From the IMG/VR virus record IMGVR_UViG_3300031485_000046: 64,000 bases of DNA; one strand, given 5' to 3'. This DNA comes from a virus. Positions 4,138 to 21,044 of the stretch are shown piece by piece. Made by a program: the position numbers and the translations under genes. The notes under the pieces were generated by a model. It did not search any database, was not told where the DNA came from, and worked only from the letters and a program-made list of their open reading frames with translations. Numbering within the stretch: the stretch's first letter is position 1; every line of letters begins with the position of its first letter.

Positions 4138-5046
4138 CTAAATCCAACCTAGCAATTCTTTCTTCAAGGCATCCGCGTCAGTTTGTGCCATATCACCGGG
4201 GTCACCTTGTATTTTTATAGAATAGGCATCCACGCCTCTAAGTATAAGTTCCGCAGTCAATTTTTCCGATTGTTTTATTGCCTGCGGATCATCATCGAAT
4301 ACCACAAATACTTTCTTGAACCTTTTGCTTATTTCCCTTACCTGATATTTAGTGTATTTTATCCCAAAAGTAGCAATAGCACCGTACCCAAATCTCCATG
4401 CGTCTGTGACACCCTCCACACAAATGCAAGCATCATAATCCTTAATTGGTATCGCTTGGTAAAATACGTGCTTGTGTTTTACTATCTCTCGTTGTTCTGG
4501 ACACGTTATATAGCGGAGGGAATGCTTGGCAGTAATATCCCTCGTCTGAAAAGACACAATACGATTTTCCCAATAGATGGGAATAACTAATCTGTGGGAG
4601 AATGATATTCCATCCATAAGACTGATAGGACCTGTGCCTTGTACATCCCATATCTTTTCGATTACCTCTGGATTAAACTTTCTTTTGGTAAGGTATCTTT
4701 TATGACGATCGTTCATTGGTGCAGTAGAAGGAGGCAGTCTGAATTTTTTCTGACCGACTCTTACTGTTACAGTAGATTTTACATGACTCTTACCTCCGTA
4801 TTTCCTTGCTATTTCCTTTGCTTCTTTCTCTGATACGTGTATAAGTAGTGCTAGAGCTTTATGGGTCGCTTTCCAACCGCATCTCCAACAGACATAAAAA
4901 TCATCCGCCATATTGTATCCTAAATGCATTCCTGGATTACCAATGCAAAAAGGGCAGGTCGTATTGACCCACCCTTCCCGACAATGTTTATGCCCTTCCG
5001 TAGCAAATGGTACGTTAAAATCCTTGTACAATTGGATTATATTCAC
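4138..5046 (-). CDS. DNA primase (DnaG-like, CHC2 zinc finger plus TOPRIM)
   Basis: HKHCREGWVNTTCPFC zinc finger; TOPRIM motifs CVEGVTDAWRF, VFDDDPQA, GDPGDM; GTG start with AGGAGG RBS. Confidence 0.85.
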   Translation of the reverse strand: MNIIQLYKDFNVPFATEGHKHCREGWVNTTCPFCIGNPGMHLGYNMADDFYVCWRCGWKATHKALALLIHVSEKEAKEIARKYGGKSHVKSTVTVRVGQKKFRLPPSTAPMNDRHKRYLTKRKFNPEVIEKIWDVQGTGPISLMDGISFSHRLVIPIYWENRIVSFQTRDITAKHSLRYITCPEQREIVKHKHVFYQAIPIKDYDACICVEGVTDAWRFGYGAIATFGIKYTKYQVREISKRFKKVFVVFDDDPQAIKQSEKLTAELILRGVDAYSIKIQGDPGDMAQTDADALKKELLGWI

Positions 5047-5551
5047 GGCAATCCTCCTGCATTAGGGCTTTCAGTTCGTTTATCGTATCCCAAATTCTTT
5101 CGTGTGTCCAACCTTTCTCTCTGAGGATGTGGCGCAATTTCCCACGAACTGCTCTACCGCTCATGCTACCATATTCTTCTTGTGCCTCTATAATCATATC
5201 ATATACGATTTTGGCAGAAGGACTCATACGATCCATCTTTTCTTCCCATTCTTCTTTAGCATCTACCGATTCAGGTGATGGTATAGTATATTCCATTTCT
5301 TCATCGAAAAAAGTACATGGAACCTTTTTCTGATGATACAGGTAATTGTTCAGTTTGGATTTTACGCACAAGGCAATCCAATTTATCAATGGTACGTTTT
5401 TATCCGCTTTGTATGTATTCAAGGCAACTGTATAGCCAACTGTAGCCTCAGAAAAAAGTTCCTCAAAATCTACTCCAGAGGTTTTATTGTACGACCAAGC
5501 TAATTTCCTTAGAAAGTTCTGGTACTTTTTATAGGTAGCGGTATCAGTCAC
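5015..5551 (-). CDS. Sigma-70 family-like transcription factor (regions 2 and 4)
   Basis: DFEELFSEATVGYTVALNTYKADKNVPLINWIALCVKSKL resembles sigma region 2; C-terminal HTH-like segment; start placed at GTG 5549-5551 with AGGAGGA RBS. Confidence 0.55.
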   Translation of the reverse strand: MTDTATYKKYQNFLRKLAWSYNKTSGVDFEELFSEATVGYTVALNTYKADKNVPLINWIALCVKSKLNNYLYHQKKVPCTFFDEEMEYTIPSPESVDAKEEWEEKMDRMSPSAKIVYDMIIEAQEEYGSMSGRAVRGKLRHILREKGWTHERIWDTINELKALMQEDCREYNPIVQGF

Positions 5552-11595: not shown

Positions 11596-12162
11596 ATGGC
11601 ATATCGAAAATCAGGGAGACCTTTAGCAGTAGCAGAACCGTGGAATGAATCAATCCCAGAAAGGGCGTATGATCTTTGCCTTCTAGGATTGCGTGATGCC
11701 GATTTAGCCACGGCATTCGGAGTTTCTATATATACCATTGATAAATGGAAACAGACTCATCCAGAGTTTAGAGAAGCACTATCCAGAGGTAAAGAACAAG
11801 CTGACGCTAAAGTGGCAGACGCACTTTACCATAAGGCAGTAGGCTATGCCCATAAAGCTGTGGACATCAGAATAGTTGACGGCGAGGTAGTGAAAATACC
11901 ATACACTAAAATCTATCCACCAGATACTACTGCCTGCATATTCTGGTTGAAGAATAGGCAAAGACAGTACTGGACGGATACCAAGCAAAATGTTCATACT
12001 GGTACAGTGGGTGTGGAACATACTATGAGACGTCAACTTGACCTTTCTGATTTCTCCAAAGAAGAACTTGCCCTAGCAGAAAAACTAGCCTCTAGGATGC
12101 TTCAGGAGGGTACTCAGGATGCAGAGTTTACAGAAGAGGGGGAGAATGACGGGGATGAGTAA
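11596..12162 (+). CDS. terS: Terminase small subunit
   Basis: Immediately upstream of and overlapping terL; RBS AAAGGAG; family assignment is recalled resemblance to HTH-type small terminases. Confidence 0.7.
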   Translation: MAYRKSGRPLAVAEPWNESIPERAYDLCLLGLRDADLATAFGVSIYTIDKWKQTHPEFREALSRGKEQADAKVADALYHKAVGYAHKAVDIRIVDGEVVKIPYTKIYPPDTTACIFWLKNRQRQYWTDTKQNVHTGTVGVEHTMRRQLDLSDFSKEELALAEKLASRMLQEGTQDAEFTEEGENDGDE

Positions 12163-13714
12163 ATATGAACGTAAGGACGCCTTAAAACGCCAAAGAGAAA
12201 ACATCATCCCAAAATCAGATAGGTTCCAAGCATTACTTTTGAACCCATTGCAGATAAAAGCAGAAAAATGCCGTAGGTCCCTATTTGAATTTATGAAAGA
12301 ATTCTGGCCAGAAGTATCCACAAGTGACCCTACATGGAATTGGCATCTAGAATACCTAGCTAACGAACTGGAAAGGATGATGTATAGAGTAGCAAACAGA
12401 CAACCAAAAGAATACGACCTCATAATAAACATAAGCCCCGGTACCACAAAGTCTACCCTATGTTCCATAATGCTGAATGCATGGGTGTGGGCTAAATGGC
12501 CTTGGCTCCGATTCATCAACGCATCCTATTCTGGAGCCCTATCTCTGGAACATTCAGAATTGTGTCGTGACCTTATACGGTCAGAACGATACAAAAGGTT
12601 ATTCCCGTATTTGGAAATAAAGCAAGACAAGGATACCAAAACTAACTTTAAAATTTTATATGATGAAGAGCGTCTGGATTCCATAACAGGCGAAGCATCT
12701 ACACTAAAAAAGAGTGGTGGTAACAGATACTCCACCTCCGTAGGCGGCACCTTGACTGGATTCCATGCTGATGTACTGTTAGTAGACGATCCATTGGATC
12801 CGCAAAGAGCTGTATCCGACGTGGAAGTCCTTAAAGCCAACACATGGATAGATCAGACACTATCTACCAGAAAGGTAGATAAAGCGGTAACACCAACCAT
12901 AATCATAATGCAAAGGCTCCATCAGAATGACCCTACGGGTTATCTGCTATCCAAGAAGAATAAAAAGATAAAGCATATCTGCCTACCAGGTGAAATACGG
13001 AATTACAGGAAAAATTTGAAACCTAAAGCCCTAGCCAAGTATTATAAGGATGATCTGTTCGACCCTATAAGAATGCCATGGAAAGTCCTTGACGACCTAA
13101 GAGTAGACCTTGGTGAATTCGGGTATGCTTCCCAGATCGGCCAATCCGCAGTATCAGACAAGGGCAACTTATTCAAGGTAGAACACTTTCAAATCATCCA
13201 TAGTATGGTACCAGACCCAGACATAGTAAGATCCATACGATACTGGGACAAAGCCGGTACAGCTGGAGCTGGAGCATACACGGTGGGGGTACGAATGCTT
13301 GCATTGAATAATGGAAAATTCCTTATCACGGATGTTAAAAGAGGGCGGTGGTCCACAGAACAACGGGAAGCCATCATCAGACAGACTGCAGAAGCCGACG
13401 GTACAGACACAATAATCTGGCATGAACAAGAACCAGGTTCAGGCGGAAAAGAATCCGCAGAAGGCACTATAAGAAACCTAGCTGGATACACCACGTATGC
13501 AGATAGGGTAACTAGAAACAAGGAAATGAGAGCGGATCCATATTCAGTCCAAGTAAATAATGGTAACGTACTGTTACTATATGCTCCGTGGAACCAAGAC
13601 TTCATAGAAGAGCACAGATACTTCCCAAATTCAACATATAAGGATCAGGTAGACGCAGCCTCAGGAGCGTTCTCTAAGGCAGTACGGAAAAAGATAGCCG
13701 GTGCGATAGGATAA
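12155..13714 (+). CDS. terL: Terminase large subunit (ATPase plus RNase H-like nuclease)
   Basis: N-terminal ATPase region; C-terminal nuclease-domain pattern (IRYWDKAGTAGAGAY...DQVDAASGAF); start at ATG 12155 with RBS, overlapping terS stop. Confidence 0.9.
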   Translation: MSKYERKDALKRQRENIIPKSDRFQALLLNPLQIKAEKCRRSLFEFMKEFWPEVSTSDPTWNWHLEYLANELERMMYRVANRQPKEYDLIINISPGTTKSTLCSIMLNAWVWAKWPWLRFINASYSGALSLEHSELCRDLIRSERYKRLFPYLEIKQDKDTKTNFKILYDEERLDSITGEASTLKKSGGNRYSTSVGGTLTGFHADVLLVDDPLDPQRAVSDVEVLKANTWIDQTLSTRKVDKAVTPTIIIMQRLHQNDPTGYLLSKKNKKIKHICLPGEIRNYRKNLKPKALAKYYKDDLFDPIRMPWKVLDDLRVDLGEFGYASQIGQSAVSDKGNLFKVEHFQIIHSMVPDPDIVRSIRYWDKAGTAGAGAYTVGVRMLALNNGKFLITDVKRGRWSTEQREAIIRQTAEADGTDTIIWHEQEPGSGGKESAEGTIRNLAGYTTYADRVTRNKEMRADPYSVQVNNGNVLLLYAPWNQDFIEEHRYFPNSTYKDQVDAASGAFSKAVRKKIAGAIG

Positions 13715-13772
13715 ACATATAAAGGTAACCAAACAGATAACCCGTTTAGCCGTAGGCTATAGGGATAAATAA

Positions 13773-13817
13773 TGATACAGATAGATATGGATTCACCTAT
13801 CTGTATCATTTTTTTAT
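13773..13817 (+). terminator. Rho-independent terminator after terL
   Basis: Perfect 12-bp stem TGATACAGATAG/CTATCTGTATCA, 12-nt loop, T-run 13809-13817. Confidence 0.6.
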
Positions 13818-14325
13818 GGTAAAATACTCATACCGTAAGGTAAGCTATGATATAGTAAAAATTGGGTAGTTTGGTAGTTATAGAGGTAGTCAGATAGAAT
13901 AGGAAAAAAACTATCCATAAAAATAACATAGATAGGTAGACTAATATGGTATAATCTATAGAAACCTATATATCAATACAATCCATACTTTTACTATCCA
14001 AATAAGCTAATAATCCAATATAATCCAGATAATCCTAAACAGGTACATATAGTCAATTATAATAAGATACAGAAGAGGCAATCCCAAATCATACTAAGAT
14101 GGTATACCAATATATCTGATACACCATATAACCTATCTCATGTAACCATACGAATATGCATATGGATAAACAGTAAGAACGACATAATACAAATATACAC
14201 CAATTCAATCAAGCTAATAGGAACATACGCAATAAGCTAATATCCGATAAGCCTAAACAGGTACATAGTCAATATCAATATCTAGTCAATAGTAAACTAA
14301 CATGCGAGCCTCCCTAAGGTAGGTC

Positions 14326-14370
14326 CCATAAATTGGTACCATAAATTGGTACCATATCCTGGTTTACCAG
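14326..14370. repeat. Tandem repeat ATAAATTGGTACC (about 2.5 copies)
   Basis: Direct read of sequence. Confidence 0.6.
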
Positions 14371-14688
14371 CATGTGGTAACCTTACCTCCATCCTTACCA
14401 TCACCTATACCACCATTCATCTGGATCTAATCTGCCTATACCCATATTTAATCTATGGTATTTAATAAATGGACACCATATTTCATAAATGGATAGCCAA
14501 AACCATACAAGCCATATCCTATTCCGTATTCCAATCCAATATATAGATACCTATACCTCCACTTCACCATGTACTGGGAAACCCAGTAATTGGTATAAAA
14601 AAATGGGACCTAAGTGTGGTAACCTAGATTTATCTATGTATGATCGTTTATATAGTGAAACCGAGATTTATACCTATTATTTTGTCCT

Positions 14689-15080
14689 CCACTATACCAA
14701 TACGGTGGTATGCTGGATTGTAATCAGGAAATTCAAATACGGAGTAGACCTCGATGTTTTACTATGTATATATAGAACGTATCTTTATAACAGTACCTAC
14801 CAACTATCCACTACGGTGGTGTGTTGGATTGTACTTATAAATATGTGGAAAATAGAAAATGGGAGGTATTTCGATGTTTTACTATGTAGAACCGACGGTC
14901 TGTTTTTGTCAGGAATCTTCCAACTATCCACTACGGTGGTATATTGGGAGATACTTACCGAAACGTGTATGATATGAAATGGGAGGTATTTCGATGTTTT
15001 ACTATGCATATATAGAGATATTGATTGGTTCCCATTTACCCTATATCTTACCCAGTATCCACTACGGTGGTATGTTGGGT
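14689..15080. repeat. Four direct repeats, period about 120-130 bp, with conserved cores CCACTACGGTGGT and GGGAGGTATTTCGATGTTTTACTATG
   Basis: Core copies at about 14689, 14801, 14921, 15051; second core at 14751, 14871, 14991. Confidence 0.7.
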
Positions 15081-15168
15081 AGTATTAATCCGTAGTATGG
15101 GTAGGTACTGTCTAGATTGTTTATCTATATATAGAGAATGAATAAGGTGTGTCCATTCCCAAAATACC

Positions 15169-15697
15169 TCAGGCCCTCCATTATCTAGAATTTTCCCCAA
15201 TTATAAAAATTTGTCAACCTCTGGCAGCTAAATGGAGTATAAGTATCCTACGGATACATGTATAAAAATGAAATCTTGGACACGTATCCAACGGATTATT
15301 TTATAAAAATGGGATTGGATTATTTTTATTTATACAGGTTCAATTTGAGAAAATGCACCTGTTTGAGTTTTCGATGGGTAATTGGTATAACAATAGTTGG
15401 ATTATATAAAAACGGTATGGGATAATACCAGACCCGTTTTGAAGGCATAAATTGCATAAATCAGTTCCGTTTATTTTTTTATTTCCTATGGATGGTACCG
15501 AATATTTCGAGGAGAAAAGGAATCCATAAAAATCATACGAGGTTTTTCATGCTACCTAATCCAAAATACGTGGCGAATTTTCGGCTCCGTAATCGTTTTT
15601 CTAGAGGTGAGCGGTGAATTCATACCGGTAGAAAATGAGCGCCTTCTAGCGCACCGCTGGCGGAGAAACTCATTGGCGGAGAAACTGGCGGAGAAAA
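15169..15697. repeat. Non-coding element B: TCAGGCCCTCCATT box (15169-15182) and three GGCGGAGAAA(C/A) repeats (15659-15669, 15675-15685, 15687-15697)
   Basis: Homologous end motifs and spacing to element A (2881-3398). Confidence 0.6.
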
Positions 15698-15748
15698 TGG
15701 ATGGATTTTTCTGTTTTTCTGTTTTTCTGATTGTTGTACATCGTTTCT

Positions 15749-15797
15749 ACATTCTACATTCTACATTCTACATTCTACATTCTACATTCTGCATTTC
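15749..15797. repeat. Heptanucleotide tandem repeat ATTCTAC, about 7 copies
   Basis: Direct read of sequence. Confidence 0.75.
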
Positions 15798-16019
15798 AGA
15801 AGAATGCATGTGGTACTTTATAAGATGCATGTATGCAATGTCATATGCATCCTTAATTGTCTCCTGATTACTATACAATTATACACTATTCCTATTCCTG
15901 TTTCAATCGTAACAGATATTTTACTATTATATAATAATCTATAGTATTGTGTCATATTGTAGAATATTCTTATATTCATGAATATCAGACAAGCATAATG
16001 CAGAATGCATATTATACAA

Positions 16020-16213
16020 TGCATTATTCAGCTATATTTTTCACAAGCATTTTTTAGTAGTACAATGCATAATGCAGAATGCATCATGCATTATTCAATG
16101 AAACATTTCACAAGTGTTCATACAGTGCATACAATACATTCTGCATCATGCATCATGCATTATTCAGCTATATTTTTCACAAGCATTTTTTAGTAGTACA
16201 ATACATTCTGCAA
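16020..16213. repeat. Two copies of a 50-bp direct repeat (16021-16070, 16157-16206) plus three copies of TTCAATGAAAYATTTCACAAG
   Basis: Direct read of sequence; repeats about 136 bp apart. Confidence 0.6.
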
Positions 16214-16439
16214 TATGCATTGTATAGCATGTATTATTCAATGAAACATTTCACAAGTGTTACTGTATCCGAAGAGTATACAATGCATTTTTCAATGAAA
16301 TATTTCACAAGCGATACTGTGATCGAATTGTATCTGAATGACTATACAATTCACTATTATTTTATAAAACTCTATAGTATTGCAGAATACAGTAGAATTC
16401 AGTAGAATTATATTAAGTGTATAGTCTTTTCATGCATAG

Positions 16440-16467
16440 TTGACATTCTATCGTAGAGTGCTATACT
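16440..16467 (+). promoter_or_regulatory. Sigma-70-type promoter for three-gene cassette
   Basis: TTGACA (16440-16445), 16-nt spacer, TATACT (16462-16467). Confidence 0.5.
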
Positions 16468-16584
16468 GTACTCGTAGCAAGCGAGCGAGCAAGTTCTTTG
16501 ACAACTGAAGAAGCAAGCTCATAACAGAGTAACACTTCTTCAGAACATACGCGCACAACGTTGCGCAGAAAGAGAGTGTGTAGC

Positions 16585-16923
16585 ATGACAACGAGCAGCA
16601 AGAAGAACGTAAACAGTAAGAAAGCTGAAATAGTCGAACAGAAAGCAGTTGAAGTAAAGAAAGAAGAAGTAAGAGAAGCAAAGAAGATTAGCAATACTCA
16701 GAAGTGTGCTGATATGATCATGCAACTTGCGAAAGACGCTAAGTATACTCGCAGTGAAATTTGTAATGCTGTTTCAGATGCACTAACAGCATTAAGCATA
16801 GTCACAGTAAAGACTATGCTTTCAGACTTGCAGAACAGCAAGTATGCAAGACGTTATAGCACTCATACTATCGCAGTAAACAAAGAAACAAAGATTGTAA
16901 CAGTAGCAAGTGAGATAAAATGA
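16585..16923 (+). CDS. Hypothetical lysine-rich protein (cassette gene 1)
   Basis: ATG at 16585 downstream of promoter; 5' leader contains 9-bp inverted repeat CTGAAGAAG/CTTCTTCAG (16503-16545). Confidence 0.55.
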   Translation: MTTSSKKNVNSKKAEIVEQKAVEVKKEEVREAKKISNTQKCADMIMQLAKDAKYTRSEICNAVSDALTALSIVTVKTMLSDLQNSKYARRYSTHTIAVNKETKIVTVASEIK

Positions 16924-17132
16924 AGTATCAGCATGTTGAACGTTCGCAAGCTCTCGCAGTAAGTGACGTTGAAACTTTGCAGAATATTGCAAAAAGACGT
17001 CTGATCGATTTGAAACAGCTTGCAAGAGAAGCAGACTCTTTACTTGTCTTTTCAGTAATAAGAAATACATGTATTCAAATCGATCGAAGCATCGATGATG
17101 CACTTGAAAACGCAAGAAAATTACTGAAGTAG
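16920..17132 (+). CDS. Hypothetical protein (cassette gene 2)
   Basis: ATGA overlap with upstream stop. Confidence 0.5.
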   Translation: MKYQHVERSQALAVSDVETLQNIAKRRLIDLKQLAREADSLLVFSVIRNTCIQIDRSIDDALENARKLLK

Positions 17133-17141
17133 TACAAAAAA

Positions 17142-17185
17142 AGATAGTCAAGTATCTACAATTCGATACTTGACTATCTTTTTAT
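17142..17185 (+). terminator. Rho-independent terminator
   Basis: Perfect 15-bp stem AGATAGTCAAGTATC/GATACTTGACTATCT, 8-nt loop, T-rich tail. Confidence 0.6.
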
Positions 17186-17208
17186 CTCATTTGAAAGAGA
17201 GTGATACT

Positions 17209-17532
17209 ATGTTAGATAATCAGTATGAATTACATCAAAAGATACAAAAAATAGAACACAAGCATATCAGATTACATGCAAGCAATTGTATGTACAAATT
17301 GATGAATATTCAATTGTTACTTGAAGAACAGATTAATCTACTCATTTCTGATATTGTAGCAAATGATGCTTCTGTTAGTGAAATATTGCTAACAGAACGT
17401 CAAAGTACATTTGATAATGAACTTTTTGCGATAACGACAAAAGAAGATAGAAAAGCAATAGCAATACTGCATAATACTATAATCGATAGTATGAATGCAG
17501 TAAGAAAGACAATCATCTATACAGACGAATAA
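17209..17532 (+). CDS. Hypothetical protein (cassette gene 3)
   Basis: ATG at 17209 (MLDNQYELHQ) after weak RBS; ORF track start at 17170 lies inside the terminator. Confidence 0.5.
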   Translation: MLDNQYELHQKIQKIEHKHIRLHASNCMYKLMNIQLLLEEQINLLISDIVANDASVSEILLTERQSTFDNELFAITTKEDRKAIAILHNTIIDSMNAVRKTIIYTDE

Positions 17533-17574
17533 AATTACACAATAGAGCATAATTGATAGCAATTGAATAGAAAA

Positions 17575-17612
17575 GAGTAGTCAATACTAGACTACTCTTT
17601 TCTTTTTTATTC
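17575..17612 (+). terminator. Rho-independent terminator
   Basis: Stem AGAGTAGTC/GACTACTCT, 7-nt loop, T-run. Confidence 0.6.
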
Positions 17613-17750
17613 ATGCATACAATGCATGATGCATCCTGCACTATGCATAGTATAAGCGTTCATAGTAGCATTTGATAACATAACACTACACTATTTATTA
17701 CAATTAGACAATATACTACAATATGATAGTGTAGTGTGTATTGTCTATTC

Positions 17751-17794
17751 TATACACTACAATATAGACAAGTATACACTACAATATAGACAAG
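17751..17794. repeat. Tandem 22-bp direct repeat TATACACTACAATATAGACAAG (2 copies), flanked by inverted repeat ACACTACACTAT/ATAGTGTAGTGT
   Basis: Direct read of sequence. Confidence 0.6.
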
Positions 17795-17998
17795 TATAGA
17801 ATAGAGTATAATAATCTATAGTATGCTACACTATATAGCAATATAATATAATAATATATAATTGTATAGTAAAGCAGATACAATTCAATACAATGACTGC
17901 GCTAGTATACAATGCATGATGCATGATGCATCGTACACAATGCATAATGTAAAATCGATTTTACACGTTGCAGAATGCATGCTGGCTCCTGGCCCCCT

Positions 17999-18152
17999 CT
18001 AAAATTGTGACAAATTTTTCTGGATATTAAAATGGGTAATCCATTATTTTCTAAAGCATATTCATTATTTATTCTACGTATCTTTCACACACCCCTCGTA
18101 AAATTGCTACTGATTTTTCCCAATACTAAAGTGGGTAATCCATTATTTTCGA
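17999..18152. repeat. Two copies of about 55-bp element ending in TGGGTAATCCATTATTTTC (promoter-like)
   Basis: Copies at about 17999-18052 and 18094-18150; degenerate third at about 18340-18375. Confidence 0.55.
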
Positions 18153-18414
18153 TATATCTATTCTGTATGACTGTATAGATAGTATAAGATGCAGTATCCA
18201 ATTTTAACTAATGGATTAATATACCCAATTTACTCATACTATACGTATCTTCATGGATCCGTTTTCTTTCGTCTTTATTTTTACCATACCCCGTCATTCT
18301 GTATGAATTTATCCAAAAATAACCGCATAAATATTTTGTAAAAATTTATATGGGAGTTAAAATGGGTTGATTAGATCAGTAGAGAGGTTAGATCACACTA
18401 GGGAGTTAGATACG

Positions 18415-18452
18415 ATGCATCCTAGCCCGGATCCTGATAGGCTAGGATGCAT
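18415..18452. other. Perfect 13-bp inverted repeat (stem-loop) ATGCATCCTAGCC / GGCTAGGATGCAT with 12-nt loop
   Basis: Direct read of sequence; no T-run follows. Confidence 0.5.
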
Positions 18453-18674
18453 ATAGAAACTATGTTTGTCGTAATATATCTTGAAAACGCATCAGATTCG
18501 TTTCATACTGTGCGATTTCCTTGCTTATGGAAGCTGTTCGTTCTGTTTCAGACGTTGTTTCTATCGTCTAGAGTGAAAAAGATCGAATACCGTGCAAGGA
18601 TTTAACGTGTCATGCCATCCCATTCGGTTGTTCCCTCCGTCCTTGCGACTTTCCTATAAGGGATGGAAACCGGG

Positions 18675-18893
18675 TCATTTCGCCCGCTCCTCCCAGAACC
18701 GTCTGCGTCGCTCCTCCCTGTGACGCTTGATATTCTCCCGCACCCTCTGCGTGCGGGGCGGGAACGTGTTCAGATGGGTCAGCACCGGCTCCACGCTGAC
18801 AGCTCTGCCGAATTCCCTCTCCCATTCCTGGGCGTAGATTTCCTCGTAGGATAACATTTCGCGAAATCTGAGCCCCGTGCATCGTCCGCTCAT
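18675..18893 (-). CDS. Small basic, arginine-rich protein encoded in a GC-rich patch
   Basis: ATG overlaps stop of KdsB-like gene (ATGA); local composition visibly GC-richer than surroundings. Confidence 0.4.
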   Translation of the reverse strand: MSGRCTGLRFREMLSYEEIYAQEWEREFGRAVSVEPVLTHLNTFPPRTQRVRENIKRHREERRRRFWEERAK

Positions 18894-19684
18894 TCCTTAC
18901 CCTCCTTTTTTTCTATAATTTCATCATATTCATTTTCTTTACCAGAGTTTATTATACAACGAACAGCTTCCAAATCAGCAGGAGTATCTACACTAGGTCC
19001 AACTTTTTTTGCTCTTGTTATTTCTACTTTAATGGAAAAATCATGTTCTAATATTCTGAGCTGTTCCAGTGATTCTGCTGATGCCAAAGGTGTTTGTGGC
19101 ATTTTGGCATAATAATGGATTAAGAAACGTCTAGTAAATCCATAAATTCCTATATGTCGGTAGATGGGATATACTTCTTCCGGATCTCTAATAAAAGGGA
19201 TAGGAGACCTACTGAAATATAAAGCATCTCCATTTATTCTGAATGCCACTTTTACTACCGATGGATCATTGATAGTAGCGGTATCTGTAATAAGGGCACA
19301 TATCGTAGCAGATTCCGTAGCCCTATTTTCAGTTTTATAAAATAATGATATTACTTCATCAATCATACAAGGATTAAGTAATGGTTCATCCCCTTGTATG
19401 TTTATCACTATATTATTATTAGAGAATTTTTTAGCTATTTCCACAACTCTACTAGTTCCGTTTGTATGATTTGGAGAAGTTAGCATAGCTTCTCCACCGA
19501 AATTATTTACAGCCTGCACGATTCTTTCATCGTCAGTAGCTACAATCAACCGGTCAAGTAAAGTAGATCGTGAGGCTCGCTCGTACACTCTCTGGATCAT
19601 TGTTTTTCCGCATATATCAGCTAGAGGTTTACCGGGGAGCCTTGTAGAATTGTATCTAGCGGGGATAACTCCTAAAGTTATCAT
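18890..19684 (-). CDS. kdsB: CMP-Kdo synthetase-like cytidylyltransferase (3-deoxy-manno-octulosonate cytidylyltransferase family)
   Basis: IPARYNSTRLPGKPL, VATDDE, GGE, QGDEP, ALYFSR, HIGIYGF, LEQLR, VDTPADLE match KdsB signature blocks as recalled. Confidence 0.85.
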   Translation of the reverse strand: MITLGVIPARYNSTRLPGKPLADICGKTMIQRVYERASRSTLLDRLIVATDDERIVQAVNNFGGEAMLTSPNHTNGTSRVVEIAKKFSNNNIVINIQGDEPLLNPCMIDEVISLFYKTENRATESATICALITDTATINDPSVVKVAFRINGDALYFSRSPIPFIRDPEEVYPIYRHIGIYGFTRRFLIHYYAKMPQTPLASAESLEQLRILEHDFSIKVEITRAKKVGPSVDTPADLEAVRCIINSGKENEYDEIIEKKEGKE

Positions 19685-19703
19685 TATTTATCACTTCCAT
19701 TCA

Positions 19704-19850
19704 TTATTTAAGATTATGTGGTACTTTTTTGTCAAGTTCCAGTAATTTTGCATTAACTTTTTCTAGTTCAGCCATGAGAAATATTACCATATCGCATCTA
19801 TCAGGTAGTATTTTTTCTTTACCTGTTACTTTCCTCCATAATTCTACCAT
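19704..19850 (-). CDS. Short ORF (48 aa) paralogous to C-terminal half of the 20615-20914 protein; not in ORF track
   Basis: ELWRKVTGKEKILPDRCDMVIFLMAELEKVNAKL vs RLWRKTTGKDFIMPDRCDLVVYLMEELDKAKRRI; no clear RBS. Confidence 0.3.
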   Translation of the reverse strand: MVELWRKVTGKEKILPDRCDMVIFLMAELEKVNAKLLELDKKVPHNLK

Positions 19851-19906
19851 CGGGATTTGTCCAAAGTTTCTTGTTATTGTCGTATTTCTATCCAGTTCTA
19901 TAATAC

Positions 19907-20443
19907 TTATTCAGAAAGGTTGTCATGTTCACTTGCATTTTCCTCCTTTGTTGGAAGTGGTACCGGTAACTTTTCTTTTATGCAATTCATAAGGATTGTA
20001 TATTTCCTTTCTTGCATCATTTCTAATGCTTTTACCATCGTTTTTCCCCAACCATTACATGAATATTTTCCTAAGTCTTTAATGTAGGCAACGTATCCTT
20101 TCATTCCGTTTAGTTCTGTAGTCATTGGCTGAATTGTAATGGAATACGGAATTTTCATCAATTCATCTATAGTGGGATCCTCGTTTCTGTTTATATTTTG
20201 TGAAATTACCGACATATTTATCATGTCAAACCTATTAGACATACGGTCAGGTACGTTAATCGTAGCACCACATCCGGAGCATCGCAAAATTAAGGAATCT
20301 AATTCTGCAATCATTTTATATGGATTTGGATACGCATACTGTATTTGGTCAAGAGTGTCAATTGGTTTAGCGCAAAGTGGGCAAATTATTTGTCTACCGT
20401 CACAAAACAATACATAACGCCCTTGTCCTATAGAAAGACTCAT
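19907..20443 (-). CDS. Hypothetical protein with paired CxxC motifs
   Basis: 178-codon ORF with AAAGGAG RBS. Confidence 0.6.
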   Translation of the reverse strand: MSLSIGQGRYVLFCDGRQIICPLCAKPIDTLDQIQYAYPNPYKMIAELDSLILRCSGCGATINVPDRMSNRFDMINMSVISQNINRNEDPTIDELMKIPYSITIQPMTTELNGMKGYVAYIKDLGKYSCNGWGKTMVKALEMMQERKYTILMNCIKEKLPVPLPTKEENASEHDNLSE

Positions 20444-20637
20444 TCTTCCATCTCCTTTTTAAGCAAAGCCTTCTGCATTTTCCCCAAAGCCGCAAACAAC
20501 GTATCTTTACAACCCGTATAGATATACAGACTGCCCACAACTTTACCATCAACGAGTACAGTATATGTAGGAGATTTGATTGGCCCATGGTTCTCTTCGA
20601 GTATTATCACTATTTCATTCCCCCTTTTCCATTTCAC
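20440..20637 (-). CDS. Hypothetical small protein
   Basis: GTG start, no clear RBS, overlaps upstream gene by 23 nt. Confidence 0.35.
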   Translation of the reverse strand: MKWKRGNEIVIILEENHGPIKSPTYTVLVDGKVVGSLYIYTGCKDTLFAALGKMQKALLKKEMEE

Positions 20638-20914
20638 GTATTCTACGTTTAGCTTTATCCAATTCCTCCATCAGATATACTACTAAATCACATCTGTCTG
20701 GCATGATAAAATCTTTCCCTGTTGTTTTTCGCCATAGTCTTACCGCTCTCATATCCGCTTTCCATACAATATCGAACACATTCTGGAGTTGTTTAGCGTC
20801 TTCTTTCAAGGAATCCACGAGCATTTTCATATTTTCTAACCGTTTTTTCAAGGAATCTCTCTCTTTAACCAGCTTTTCTAGTTCTTGCATGAGCAATTTT
20901 CGATCACTTTCCAT
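20615..20914 (-). CDS. Hypothetical coiled-coil protein
   Basis: ATG 20912-20914 with AAGGAGGG RBS. Confidence 0.55.
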   Translation of the reverse strand: MESDRKLLMQELEKLVKERDSLKKRLENMKMLVDSLKEDAKQLQNVFDIVWKADMRAVRLWRKTTGKDFIMPDRCDLVVYLMEELDKAKRRIREMEKGE

Positions 20915-21044
20915 CAATGTCCCTCCTTATAAATTTGCGCTTCACTATATTATACAACACCATTTTTGCTCATTTATACATAGTTTTCCATGAAAATTGT
21001 GTTTAATTTGCAATTATAGTATACTGTATAGTTTTCTGTCATAG

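What the first reader, a model, noticed from the sequence alone, without database searches (positions are those of the whole stretch)
17999..18152. Repeated promoter-like elements, possibly read by the phage sigma-like factor
Two about 55-bp copies (17999-18052 and 18094-18150, with a degenerate third near 18340-18375) share TTG(T/C)(G/T)AC...TTTT...ATA(T/C)TAAA(A/G)TGGGTAATCCATTATTTTC. The -35/-10-like hexamers are spaced shorter than canonical. The genome encodes a sigma-70-family-like protein (5015-5551), so these could be its cognate promoters.
Basis: inference. Interest (0 to 1): 0.45.

Follow-up and report, generated by a model that had tools for sequence, protein, structure and literature searches.

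The report
Tandem host-type promoter-like repeats in phage
The repeat is real and conserved in related uncultivated phages, and it looks like a variable-copy array of ordinary host-type promoters, each overlapped by a small palindrome, inside a conserved non-coding block, with nothing linking it to the phage's own sigma-like protein.

Summary
The two 59-nt copies (17993-18051, 18092-18150; 80% identical, sharing an exact 19-mer found nowhere else in the window) and a third degenerate copy (18336-18366) are real. With TAAAAT/TAAAGT as the -10, the spacer is 17 nt (16 nt in the third copy).

About a dozen related phage contigs carry the same non-coding block between terminase and portal. Each has 1-3 hairpin-bearing units plus an invariant last unit. 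Across 18 distinct units, conservation peaks at TTG..A and TAAA.T, and the spacer stays at 17 nt. A TGG-N5-CCA inverted repeat overlaps the -10/+1 region and its inner bases vary freely.

The motif occurs only at this locus, fits the housekeeping-sigma consensus, and has no ORF downstream. What follows is about 240 nt of conserved non-coding sequence ending in a near-invariant block of about 95 nt, with modest signs of + strand RNA structure.

The 5015-5551 protein does have a sigma domain-2 fold, but nothing connects it to these units.

Best reading (about 0.45): tandem host-sigma promoters with an operator-like palindrome that feed a conserved non-coding transcript. This is a modestly interesting new member of a known kind. 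The invariant downstream element is the better lead.

The parts
17948..17965 (.). Perfect 18-bp palindrome TGTAAAATCGATTTTACA, about 40 nt upstream of the first unit; a candidate regulator site
   Evidence: Coordinates. Relatives have TGCAAAATCGATTTTGCA, with both arms changed so the symmetry is kept. L021 has one mismatch.
17993..18051 (+). Unit 1: A-rich stretch TAAAA, -35-like TTGTGA (18005-18010), 17-nt spacer, -10-like TAAAAT (18028-18033), GG, inverted repeat TGG-N5-CCA (18033-18043), T-run. Predicted start about 18039-18041.
   Evidence: The start site is inferred from the usual 6-8 nt distance downstream of a -10 element.
18092..18150 (+). Unit 2: -35-like TTGCTA (18104-18109), 17-nt spacer, -10-like TAAAGT (18127-18132), TGG-N5-CCA (18132-18142), T-run. 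Predicted start about 18138-18140.
18253..18303 (.). Invariant pyrimidine-rich block ATGGATCCGTTTTCTTTCGTCTTTATTTTTACCATACCCCGTCATTCTGTA, upstream of the last unit
   Evidence: Identical in all lineages apart from a 1-nt C-run indel, so it is not coding.
18336..18366 (+). Last unit: TTGTAA (18336-18341), 16-nt spacer, TAAAAT (18358-18363), GGG, no palindrome. It is the best-conserved unit. Predicted start about 18369-18371.
   Evidence: It is invariant in all relatives except L026/L027, where TTG is TTA.
18370..18603 (+). Conserved non-coding region downstream of the last unit and a candidate structured RNA of about 240 nt. It includes the hairpin 18415-18452 and the near-invariant block of about 95 nt (18510-18603). 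Homology with relatives stops at 18603.
   Evidence: There is no Rfam match and no tRNA or tmRNA.
16582..16923 (+). Context only: a small conserved protein with a Lys-rich tail and a winged-helix-like domain, about 1 kb upstream. Any role as binder of the palindromes is inferred and untested.
   Evidence: 113 homolog clusters. AlphaFold2 pLDDT 80. Only weak winged-helix matches, E>=0.29.
5015..5551 (-). It is sigma-like at the fold level, but no link to the units was found.

Best explanation
The units are a tandem, copy-number-variable array of promoters of the housekeeping (sigma-70/sigma-A) type. There are 1-3 copies, followed 230-450 nt later by an invariant distal promoter, and all fire rightward. 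Host RNA polymerase with its primary sigma would bind TTG..A and TAAA(A/G)T across a 17-nt spacer and start about 7 nt downstream. Each upstream unit carries a TGG-N5-CCA inverted repeat over positions -7 to +5. This most likely acts as an operator-like protein site, and less likely as a small hairpin. Transcription runs into a conserved non-coding stretch of about 240 nt that ends in a near-invariant structured element, at the boundary with a convergent, lineage-variable cargo operon. Shown: the repeat, its conservation pattern, the spacing, the lack of coding potential, and the restriction to one locus. Inferred: that RNA polymerase initiates here, which sigma is used, that the palindrome binds a protein, and that the downstream block acts as an RNA.
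For: 1. The -35-like and -10-like hexamers sit at canonical spacing in all three window copies.
2. In 18 distinct units from about 12 contigs, information content peaks at TTG..A (G and A in 18/18, TT in 16/18) and at T-12, A-11 and T-7 (18, 17 and 18 of 18). It drops at -35 positions 4-5, at -10 position 5, and in the promoter-proximal spacer.
3. The spacer is 17 nt in 16 of 17 hairpin-bearing units, although the T-run varies from 4 to 7 nt.
4. An A-rich stretch (TAAAA) lies directly upstream of the -35.
5. All units have the same orientation and are collinear in every relative.
6. The downstream region is conserved and non-coding. Four of the 5 variable sites in its long 3' hairpin keep pairing only as + strand RNA (G-C to G-U), and the + strand folds better than the - strand, -27.7 against -20.3 kcal/mol.
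7. The phage's clear operon starts use canonical sigma-70-type sites, so a housekeeping sigma that reads this consensus is available.
8. The palindrome arms are invariant while the 5 inner bases vary freely, as expected for a dimer-binding site.
Against: 1. No ORF lies downstream and there is no transcript evidence.
2. A 9/12 consensus match is common in this AT-rich DNA.
3. Two unit types have lost key determinants yet persist: C2 has CCGTAA in place of TTG..A, and L025_1 has TGAAAT.
4. L026/L027 have TTA in the last unit's -35.
5. Eleven of 18 units have G at -10 position 5. From my own knowledge, this is an unusual base at that position for strong promoters.
6. Parts of the unit that a promoter does not need are invariant: C.AATTTTT in the spacer, and CCATT.TTTT.
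7. The promoters point at the 3' end of a convergent operon.
8. The host is unknown.
Confidence: 0.45

Rival explanations
1. The units are an array of DNA sites for a protein, such as the neighbouring winged-helix-like protein, a nucleoid protein, the terminase small subunit, or a replication or partition factor. On this reading the resemblance to a promoter is incidental to AT-rich sequence. A variant of it is an origin-like region where the nearby 22-nt iteron-like repeats and palindromes act together with the units.
For: The palindrome arms are invariant, the centre is free, and there is no covariation. There are invariant modules that a promoter does not need. The units lie in a block dense with other repeats and palindromes, including a 22-nt tandem at 17751-17794, ATGCAT-rich repeats and an 18-bp palindrome. 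A conserved winged-helix-like protein is encoded 1 kb upstream. Consensus-level promoter matches are common here.
Against: The pattern of which hexamer positions are kept and which vary matches promoter requirements, and the 17-nt spacing is kept. Unit spacing is irregular at 70-118 nt, unlike iterons or centromere repeats. The palindrome is not found at other promoters or sites in the window. The winged-helix assignment rests on weak matches.
Confidence: 0.2
2. The units work at the RNA level. On this reading, each is a small hairpin (AAA(A/G)UGG-N5-CCAUU) followed by a U-run in a + strand transcript made from further upstream, acting as a weak terminator, pause or processing signal, and the hexamers are by-products.
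For: The stem is paired in 86.7% of cells. The A/G alternation lies opposite U, giving A-U or G-U on the + strand only. The loop varies freely and a T-run always follows.
Against: The hairpins are weak at -3.2 to -7.1 kcal/mol, compared with -19.1 for the real terminator at 17569-17603. They fail the terminator scan. There are no compensatory changes, and pairing is no better than in shuffles. The last unit keeps the hexamers but has no hairpin. This reading does not explain the conserved TTG..A 23 nt upstream or the fixed 17-nt distance.
Confidence: 0.1
3. One reading: the units are cognate promoters of the phage sigma-like protein (5015-5551).
For: The phage encodes a protein with a sigma domain-2 fold. 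Its N-terminal domain superposes on the SigE N-terminal domain with TM 0.87, and all top structural hits are sigma factors. Some unit features are not explained by a housekeeping promoter, namely the invariant GG and the spacer block. Phage-sigma promoters can escape motif searches (PMC8948821).
Against: The motif is confined to one non-coding locus and lies upstream of no gene. It fits the housekeeping consensus at canonical spacing. Characterised phage-sigma promoters are unlike sigma-70 promoters and are dispersed upstream of many late genes. No region 4 is detectable by sequence in the sigma-like family.
Confidence: 0.09
4. The units are translation starts of tiny hydrophobic peptides (type I toxin-like or leader peptides). 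The ATG/GTG inside the -10-like hexamer would serve as start codon, with a GGAG-like motif 7 nt upstream.
For: The A/G alternation keeps ATG or GTG. ORFs of 13-22 codons follow, for example MGNPLFSIYLFCMTV and MVFPFFSRVCLLSMTV. Several units have GGAG at -11 to -8.
Against: Three orthologous 15-codon ORFs differ by 4 non-synonymous changes and 1 synonymous change. T-run length changes shift the frame while the downstream DNA stays the same (L021 against L026). Unit 2 of the window has no SD-like motif. ORF length ranges from 2 to 48 codons. The peptide composition is simply that of T-rich DNA.
Confidence: 0.04
5. The units are RNA anti-CRISPRs, that is, solitary CRISPR-repeat mimics with their own promoters, or another RNA decoy.
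For: Phages do carry promoter-driven solitary repeat units in non-coding DNA (PMC10651486). The units are short, repeated, variable in copy number and contain a small hairpin.
Against: There is no CRISPR-DR match in the units even at E<=10. The conserved part is the promoter region, while the would-be transcribed body between units is variable in both sequence and length, 12-59 nt. Spacing is irregular. The host and its repeats are unknown.
Confidence: 0.03

Closest known systems
Tandem early promoters for host RNA polymerase in lytic phages, for example T7 A1/A2/A3 (from my own knowledge, not tested here)
   Same: Several housekeeping-type promoters sit in the same orientation within a few hundred bases, in a non-coding part of a phage genome.
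   Different: The T7 promoters precede early genes near a genome end and are not close paralogues. Here the units are clear duplicates with variable copy number. Each is overlapped by a palindrome. No ORF follows, and they face a convergent operon between the terminase and portal genes.
Promoters with an overlapping palindromic operator, as in phage repressor/operator systems such as P22 Arc/Mnt at Pant (from my own knowledge)
   Same: An inverted repeat with conserved arms and a free centre covers the -10/+1 region. P22 immI is likewise a small regulatory island inside the late region.
   Different: No repressor has been identified and no regulated gene lies downstream. The half-sites (AARTGG / CCAYT) match no operator I could name.
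Phage-sigma-dependent promoter classes of phiEco32 and 7-11 (PMC8948821)
   Same: The phage encodes a divergent sigma-like protein with a recognisable domain 2.
   Different: [quoted passage not shown] The present motif resembles sigma-70 promoters and is confined to one non-coding locus.
Tandem small-RNA gene families, each copy with its own promoter, for example LhrC1-5 of Listeria (from my own knowledge)
   Same: Repeated units of about 70-120 nt, each with promoter-like hexamers.
   Different: In sRNA families the transcribed body is the conserved part. Here the promoter region is conserved and the body between units is variable.

Membership tests
Housekeeping (sigma-70 / sigma-A type) promoter | -35 hexamer resembling TTGACA | tested here: met
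   TTGTGA, TTGCTA and TTGTAA each match 4/6. TTG is kept in 16 of 18 units, and G3 and A6 in 18 of 18.
Housekeeping (sigma-70 / sigma-A type) promoter | -10 hexamer resembling TATAAT, with A at position 2 and T at position 6 | tested here: met
   TAAAAT (5/6) or TAAAGT (4/6). T1 is kept in 18/18, A2 in 17/18 and T6 in 18/18.
Housekeeping (sigma-70 / sigma-A type) promoter | Spacer of 17 +/- 1 nt | tested here: met
   17 nt in 16 of 17 hairpin-bearing units, 18 nt in one, and 16 nt in the last unit.
Housekeeping (sigma-70 / sigma-A type) promoter | Match stronger than the background of the region | tested here: not met
   A 9/12 match is common here: 30 sites found against 21 +/- 4.7 in shuffles.
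Housekeeping (sigma-70 / sigma-A type) promoter | Mapped transcription start and RNA polymerase binding | not testable with these tools
   No transcript data are available.
Housekeeping (sigma-70 / sigma-A type) promoter | A transcription unit downstream | tested here: inconclusive
   There is no ORF. About 240 nt are conserved and non-coding, with modest signs of + strand structure.
Phage-sigma-dependent promoter class | The phage encodes a sigma-family protein | tested here: met
   Sigma70_r2 E=1.4e-6. Structural match to sigma domain 2, TM 0.87. No region 4 is detectable by sequence.
Phage-sigma-dependent promoter class | Consensus distinct from that of the host primary sigma | tested here: not met
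   The units fit TTGACA-17-TATAAT at 9/12 with canonical spacing.
Phage-sigma-dependent promoter class | Copies upstream of a temporal class of genes across the genome | tested here: not met
   The full motif occurs only at 18005-18366 in 64 kb.
Phage-sigma-dependent promoter class | Initiation by holoenzyme carrying the phage sigma | not testable with these tools
   This needs in vitro transcription.
Intrinsic terminator | Stable G+C-rich stem followed by a U-run | tested here: not met
   The stems have 2-3 G-C pairs and -3.2 to -7.1 kcal/mol. They are not reported by the terminator scan.
Structured RNA hairpin | Pairs kept through compensatory changes | tested here: not met
   There are 0 compensatory changes, and pairing is no higher than in shuffles.
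RNA anti-CRISPR (solitary CRISPR repeat unit) | Resemblance to a CRISPR repeat | tested here: inconclusive
   No CRISPR-DR family matches the units at E<=10. The host repeats are unknown.
Iterons / replication origin | Short direct repeats in regular register | tested here: not met
   The units are 59 nt long at irregular spacing of 70-118 nt. The nearby 22-nt tandem at 17751-17794 has that form but was not tested.
Invertible promoter (inverton) | Flanking inverted repeats, with both orientations present in populations | tested here: not met
   There is only an 11-nt inverted repeat, GATGCATCGTA, and 8 nt of it are self-palindromic. All contigs show one orientation.
Small-peptide gene (type I toxin or leader peptide) | Reading frame kept under purifying selection | tested here: not met
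   Four non-synonymous changes against 1 synonymous, and frame shifts caused by T-run length.

The most novel reading that the evidence does not exclude
The promoter array and its invariant distal promoter drive a previously undescribed, near-invariant structured phage RNA of about 240 nt. Its 95-nt 3' domain is 98-100% identical across lineages whose neighbouring protein has diverged to about 62% identity. The RNA sits at the border of a swappable cargo cassette. Expansion and contraction of the promoter array would act as a dosage control. The RNA could act on transcription read-through into the cargo and late genes, or against a host defence.
Probability: 0.25. Interest if true: 0.6.

Novelty: new member of a known kind. 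Interest (0 to 1): 0.38.

Why it matters
If the units are real promoters, they mark a conserved regulatory and non-coding RNA module in a widespread group of uncultivated phages. The neighbouring small protein alone has 113 homolog clusters. That genome layout places nearly 5 kb of largely non-coding DNA (two repeat-rich stretches around three small genes) between the terminase and portal genes. The natural variation in copy number (1-3 units) provides a ready-made dosage series for experiments. The more promising target is the near-invariant element downstream of the units. In practical terms, the tandem units break metagenome assemblies at this point.

Tried and rejected
1. DNA similarity to known phages, both near and distant modes: no match.
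2. Rfam at gathering and permissive thresholds, and tRNA/tmRNA search: nothing relevant.
3. The exact 19-mer core in IMG/VR: no match. Relatives were reached only through the promoter half and through a neighbouring protein.
4. The three genome-contig hits (L016-L018) come from unrelated organisms and match a pattern containing Ns. I treated them as chance and did not align them.
5. Intrinsic-terminator reading: rejected on stem stability and lack of covariation.
6. Palindrome as a general operator at other promoters: not found.
7. Search by eye for a second shared motif upstream of other operons that could be the phage sigma's target: none seen. This is weak negative evidence.
8. Mini-ORF reading: rejected.
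9. Inverton reading: rejected, because all contigs show the same orientation and the inverted repeat is mostly a self-palindrome.
10. CRISPR-repeat mimic: no support.
11. Bacteroidota-type promoter consensus (TAnnTTTG, from my own knowledge). I considered it because the terminase's nearest relatives are Flavobacteriia phages, at 38-50% identity. By my own reading the units do not match it, and strong AGGAGG ribosome-binding sites and canonical -35/-10 sites at operon starts argue against such a host.
12. Assigning a function to the 16582-16923 protein: only weak winged-helix matches.

Full report
**1. What is in the sequence**

The window carries two 59-nt direct copies at 17993-18051 and 18092-18150. 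They are 80% identical with a start-to-start spacing of 99 nt. Their 3' halves share the exact 19-mer TGGGTAATCCATTATTTTC. This 19-mer occurs nowhere else in the 64 kb even with 3 mismatches allowed, and none of 100 shuffles gave two matches. A third, degenerate copy lies at 18342-18367, 81% identical over 26 nt.

The consensus scan finds TTGTGA-17-TAAAAT at 18005-18033 and TTGTAA-16-TAAAAT at 18336-18363. Unit 2 reads TTGCTA-17-TAAAGT. The spacing is therefore canonical, not short.

At 9 of 12 consensus positions, such matches are common in this AT-rich DNA: 30 were found in 4.7 kb against 21 +/- 4.7 in shuffles. The promoter resemblance on its own proves nothing.

**2. Setting**

- The window is densely coded except for two stretches, 13715-16560 and 17533-18603.
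- The units lie in the second stretch. To their left are three small + strand ORFs (16582-17532) that end at a strong terminator at 17569-17603.
- To their right is a convergent - strand cassette that includes a KdsB-like cytidylyltransferase (Pfam E=1.5e-56) and a HicB-like protein.
- The cassette is followed by the portal gene, which has divergent canonical promoters at 21042/21045.
- Terminase small and large subunits are at 11596-13714.
- There is no DNA match to known phages, no Rfam family and no tRNA.
- The host is unresolved. The terminase is only 38-50% identical to those of Flavobacteriia phages. Strong AGGAGG ribosome-binding sites and TTGACA-17-TATAAT-type sites at operon starts point to a host with canonical signals.

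**3. Relatives**

Using the promoter half of the unit as a DNA pattern, and the small protein 16582-16923 (113 homolog clusters) as an anchor, I obtained about a dozen independent contigs.

All of them show the same layout: TerS-TerL, about 2.7 kb non-coding, small + strand ORFs, 1.1-2.1 kb non-coding, variable - strand cargo, then the portal gene. The block homologous to window 17920-18602 is collinear in all of them. Homology stops at 18603, beyond which every lineage carries different cargo.

The number of hairpin-bearing units is:

| Units | Contigs |
|---|---|
| 1 | L021/L022, L028 |
| 2 | window, L005/L012/L015/L023/L024, L026/L027 |
| 2-3 | L025 (two full units plus a partial one) |
| 3 | L013/L014, L020 |

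L029's contig ends within the array, after one full unit and a partial one. In L019 the array is replaced by a run of N, so assemblers fail here. Every array is followed 230-450 nt later by an invariant last unit.

**4. Anatomy of the unit across 18 distinct versions**

- Information content is maximal at TTG..A of the -35-like hexamer and low at its positions 4-5.
- It is maximal at T, A, A, A and T of the -10-like hexamer and low at its position 5, which is A in 7 units and G in 11.
- It is low in the eight spacer bases next to the -10.
- The spacer is 17 nt in 16 of 17 units, although its T-run varies from 4 to 7 nt. Part of this variation is only a substitution at the end of the run. The GGATAT/GGAGTAT difference needs an indel that is offset by T-run length, and the single uncompensated case gives 18 nt.

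This is what selection on a sigma-70/sigma-A-type promoter would produce.

Other features are equally invariant and not needed by a promoter:

- C.AATTTTT just after the -35.
- GG after the -10.
- The inverted repeat TGG-N5-CCA with flanking A and T runs. Its inner five bases vary freely (GTAAT, GTAAC, GTACT, GATTC, TGTTC, TATTC, CATCT).

**5. Hairpin or operator?**

As RNA, the stem would be paired in 86.7% of cells. However, there is not one compensatory change, and the value does not exceed shuffles.

The hairpins are weak, at -3.2 to -7.1 kcal/mol. The genuine terminator 450 nt upstream is -19.1 kcal/mol. The 5' arm overlaps the -10 element, so a transcript started at that unit would not contain it.

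Conserved arms with a free centre at fixed spacing fit a dimeric protein site over -10/+1 at least as well. I found no such palindrome at other promoters of the window.

The adjacent 16582-16923 protein has a confidently modelled winged-helix-like domain (pLDDT 80). Its structural matches are weak, with E>=0.29. Any role as the binder is conjecture.

**6. What lies downstream**

No ORF follows the units. The ATG/GTG inside the -10-like hexamer opens ORFs of 2-48 codons. Three observations argue against coding:

- Three orthologous 15-codon versions differ by 4 non-synonymous changes and 1 synonymous change.
- T-run length shifts the frame between L021 and L026.
- Unit 2 of the window lacks any SD-like motif.

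A pyrimidine-rich block at 18253-18303 is invariant apart from a 1-nt indel.

The last unit is followed by about 240 conserved nt. This stretch contains a hairpin at 18415-18452 with one lineage-level T-A to G-C exchange, which L028 breaks. It ends in a block of about 95 nt (18510-18603) that stays 98-100% identical even where the neighbouring protein is only about 62% identical.

In the predicted long 3' hairpin, 4 of 5 variable sites keep pairing only if read as + strand RNA. The + strand also folds better than the - strand, -27.7 against -20.3 kcal/mol, with z-scores of -2.3 and -2.0.

This is modest support for a + strand RNA, in the direction in which the units point. It is not proof.

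**7. The sigma-like protein**

- The 5015-5551 ORF (- strand, 178 aa) matches Sigma70_r2 just above the Pfam threshold.
- It matches region 2 of sporulation sigmas below the NCBIfam thresholds, and PDB sigma chains.
- Its modelled N-terminal domain superposes on sigma domain 2, and all top 50 structural hits are sigma factors.
- The family is small, with 9 clusters, and no region 4 is detectable by sequence.

The gene is therefore sigma-like. Nothing ties it to the units, for three reasons:

- The motif is confined to one non-coding locus.
- The motif fits the housekeeping consensus.
- Documented phage-sigma promoters are unlike sigma-70 promoters and lie upstream of 6-8 middle and late genes (PMC8948821).

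That paper also shows that such promoters can escape motif searches. My failure to see another shared motif is therefore weak evidence.

**8. Verdict**

The repeat is real and conserved. The best-supported reading is a tandem, copy-number-variable array of host-type promoters. Each is overlapped by an operator-like palindrome, and together they feed a conserved non-coding transcript (confidence about 0.45).

| Rival reading | Confidence |
|---|---|
| Protein-site array with incidental promoter resemblance | 0.2 |
| RNA hairpin / U-run element | 0.1 |
| Phage-sigma promoters | 0.09 |
| Mini-ORFs | 0.04 |
| CRISPR-repeat mimics | 0.03 |

Tandem phage promoters and operator-overlapped promoters are known kinds, so this is a new member of a known kind and of modest interest. 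The near-invariant downstream element and the large repeat-rich non-coding regions of this phage group are the more unusual features and deserve their own follow-up.

Noticed in passing
window 13715-16560: About 2.8 kb after the terminase large subunit has no credible ORF and is full of repeats. These include a 120-nt tandem (14751-15016) whose copies each carry a CCAAC..CCAC-TAC-GGTGG..GTTGG hairpin, TTCTACA x7 (15745-15795), and 67-69-nt AATGCAT-rich repeats (16019-16262). The same gap is present in all related contigs.
   Followed up: partly
window 17751-17810: A perfect 22-nt tandem repeat, TATACACTACAATATAGACAAG (2.2-2.7 copies), that looks like iterons. It lies in a 30% G+C stretch and is conserved in several relatives.
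   Followed up: no
window 17948-17965: A perfect 18-bp palindrome, TGTAAAATCGATTTTACA. Relatives have TGCAAAATCGATTTTGCA, with both arms changed so the symmetry is kept.
   Followed up: partly
window 18510-18603 and 18253-18303: Two non-coding blocks stay 98-100% identical across lineages whose neighbouring protein has diverged to about 62% identity. The first lies exactly at the border with the variable cargo.
   Followed up: partly
window 18528-18542 and 18958-18972: A 15-nt perfect inverted match between the invariant block and the coding sequence of the KdsB-like cargo gene. It is seen only in the window, not in relatives, and is unexplained.
   Followed up: partly
window 18610-20990; L005, L019-L028: The - strand cassette between the block and the portal gene differs in every lineage. 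The window has a CTP_transf_3 cytidylyltransferase and a HicB-like protein, L021 has Thy1, L028 has an N6_N4 methyltransferase, and several have PF27050. This is a hot spot for cargo exchange.
   Followed up: no
L019 7873-8035; L001, L003, L004: Assemblies break here. L019 has a run of N in place of the tandem units, and three IMG/VR contigs end one base before the portal start.
   Followed up: no
window 16582-16923: A small protein with a Lys-rich tail and a winged-helix-like domain. It has 113 homolog clusters, no Pfam family and no close solved structure.
   Followed up: partly
window 17622-17655 and 17905-17952: ATGCATGATGCAT-type repeats and palindromes flank the iteron-like region. An 11-nt inverted repeat, GATGCATCGTA (about 17926 and about 18411), brackets the promoter array, but 8 of its 11 nt are self-palindromic.
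   Followed up: partly
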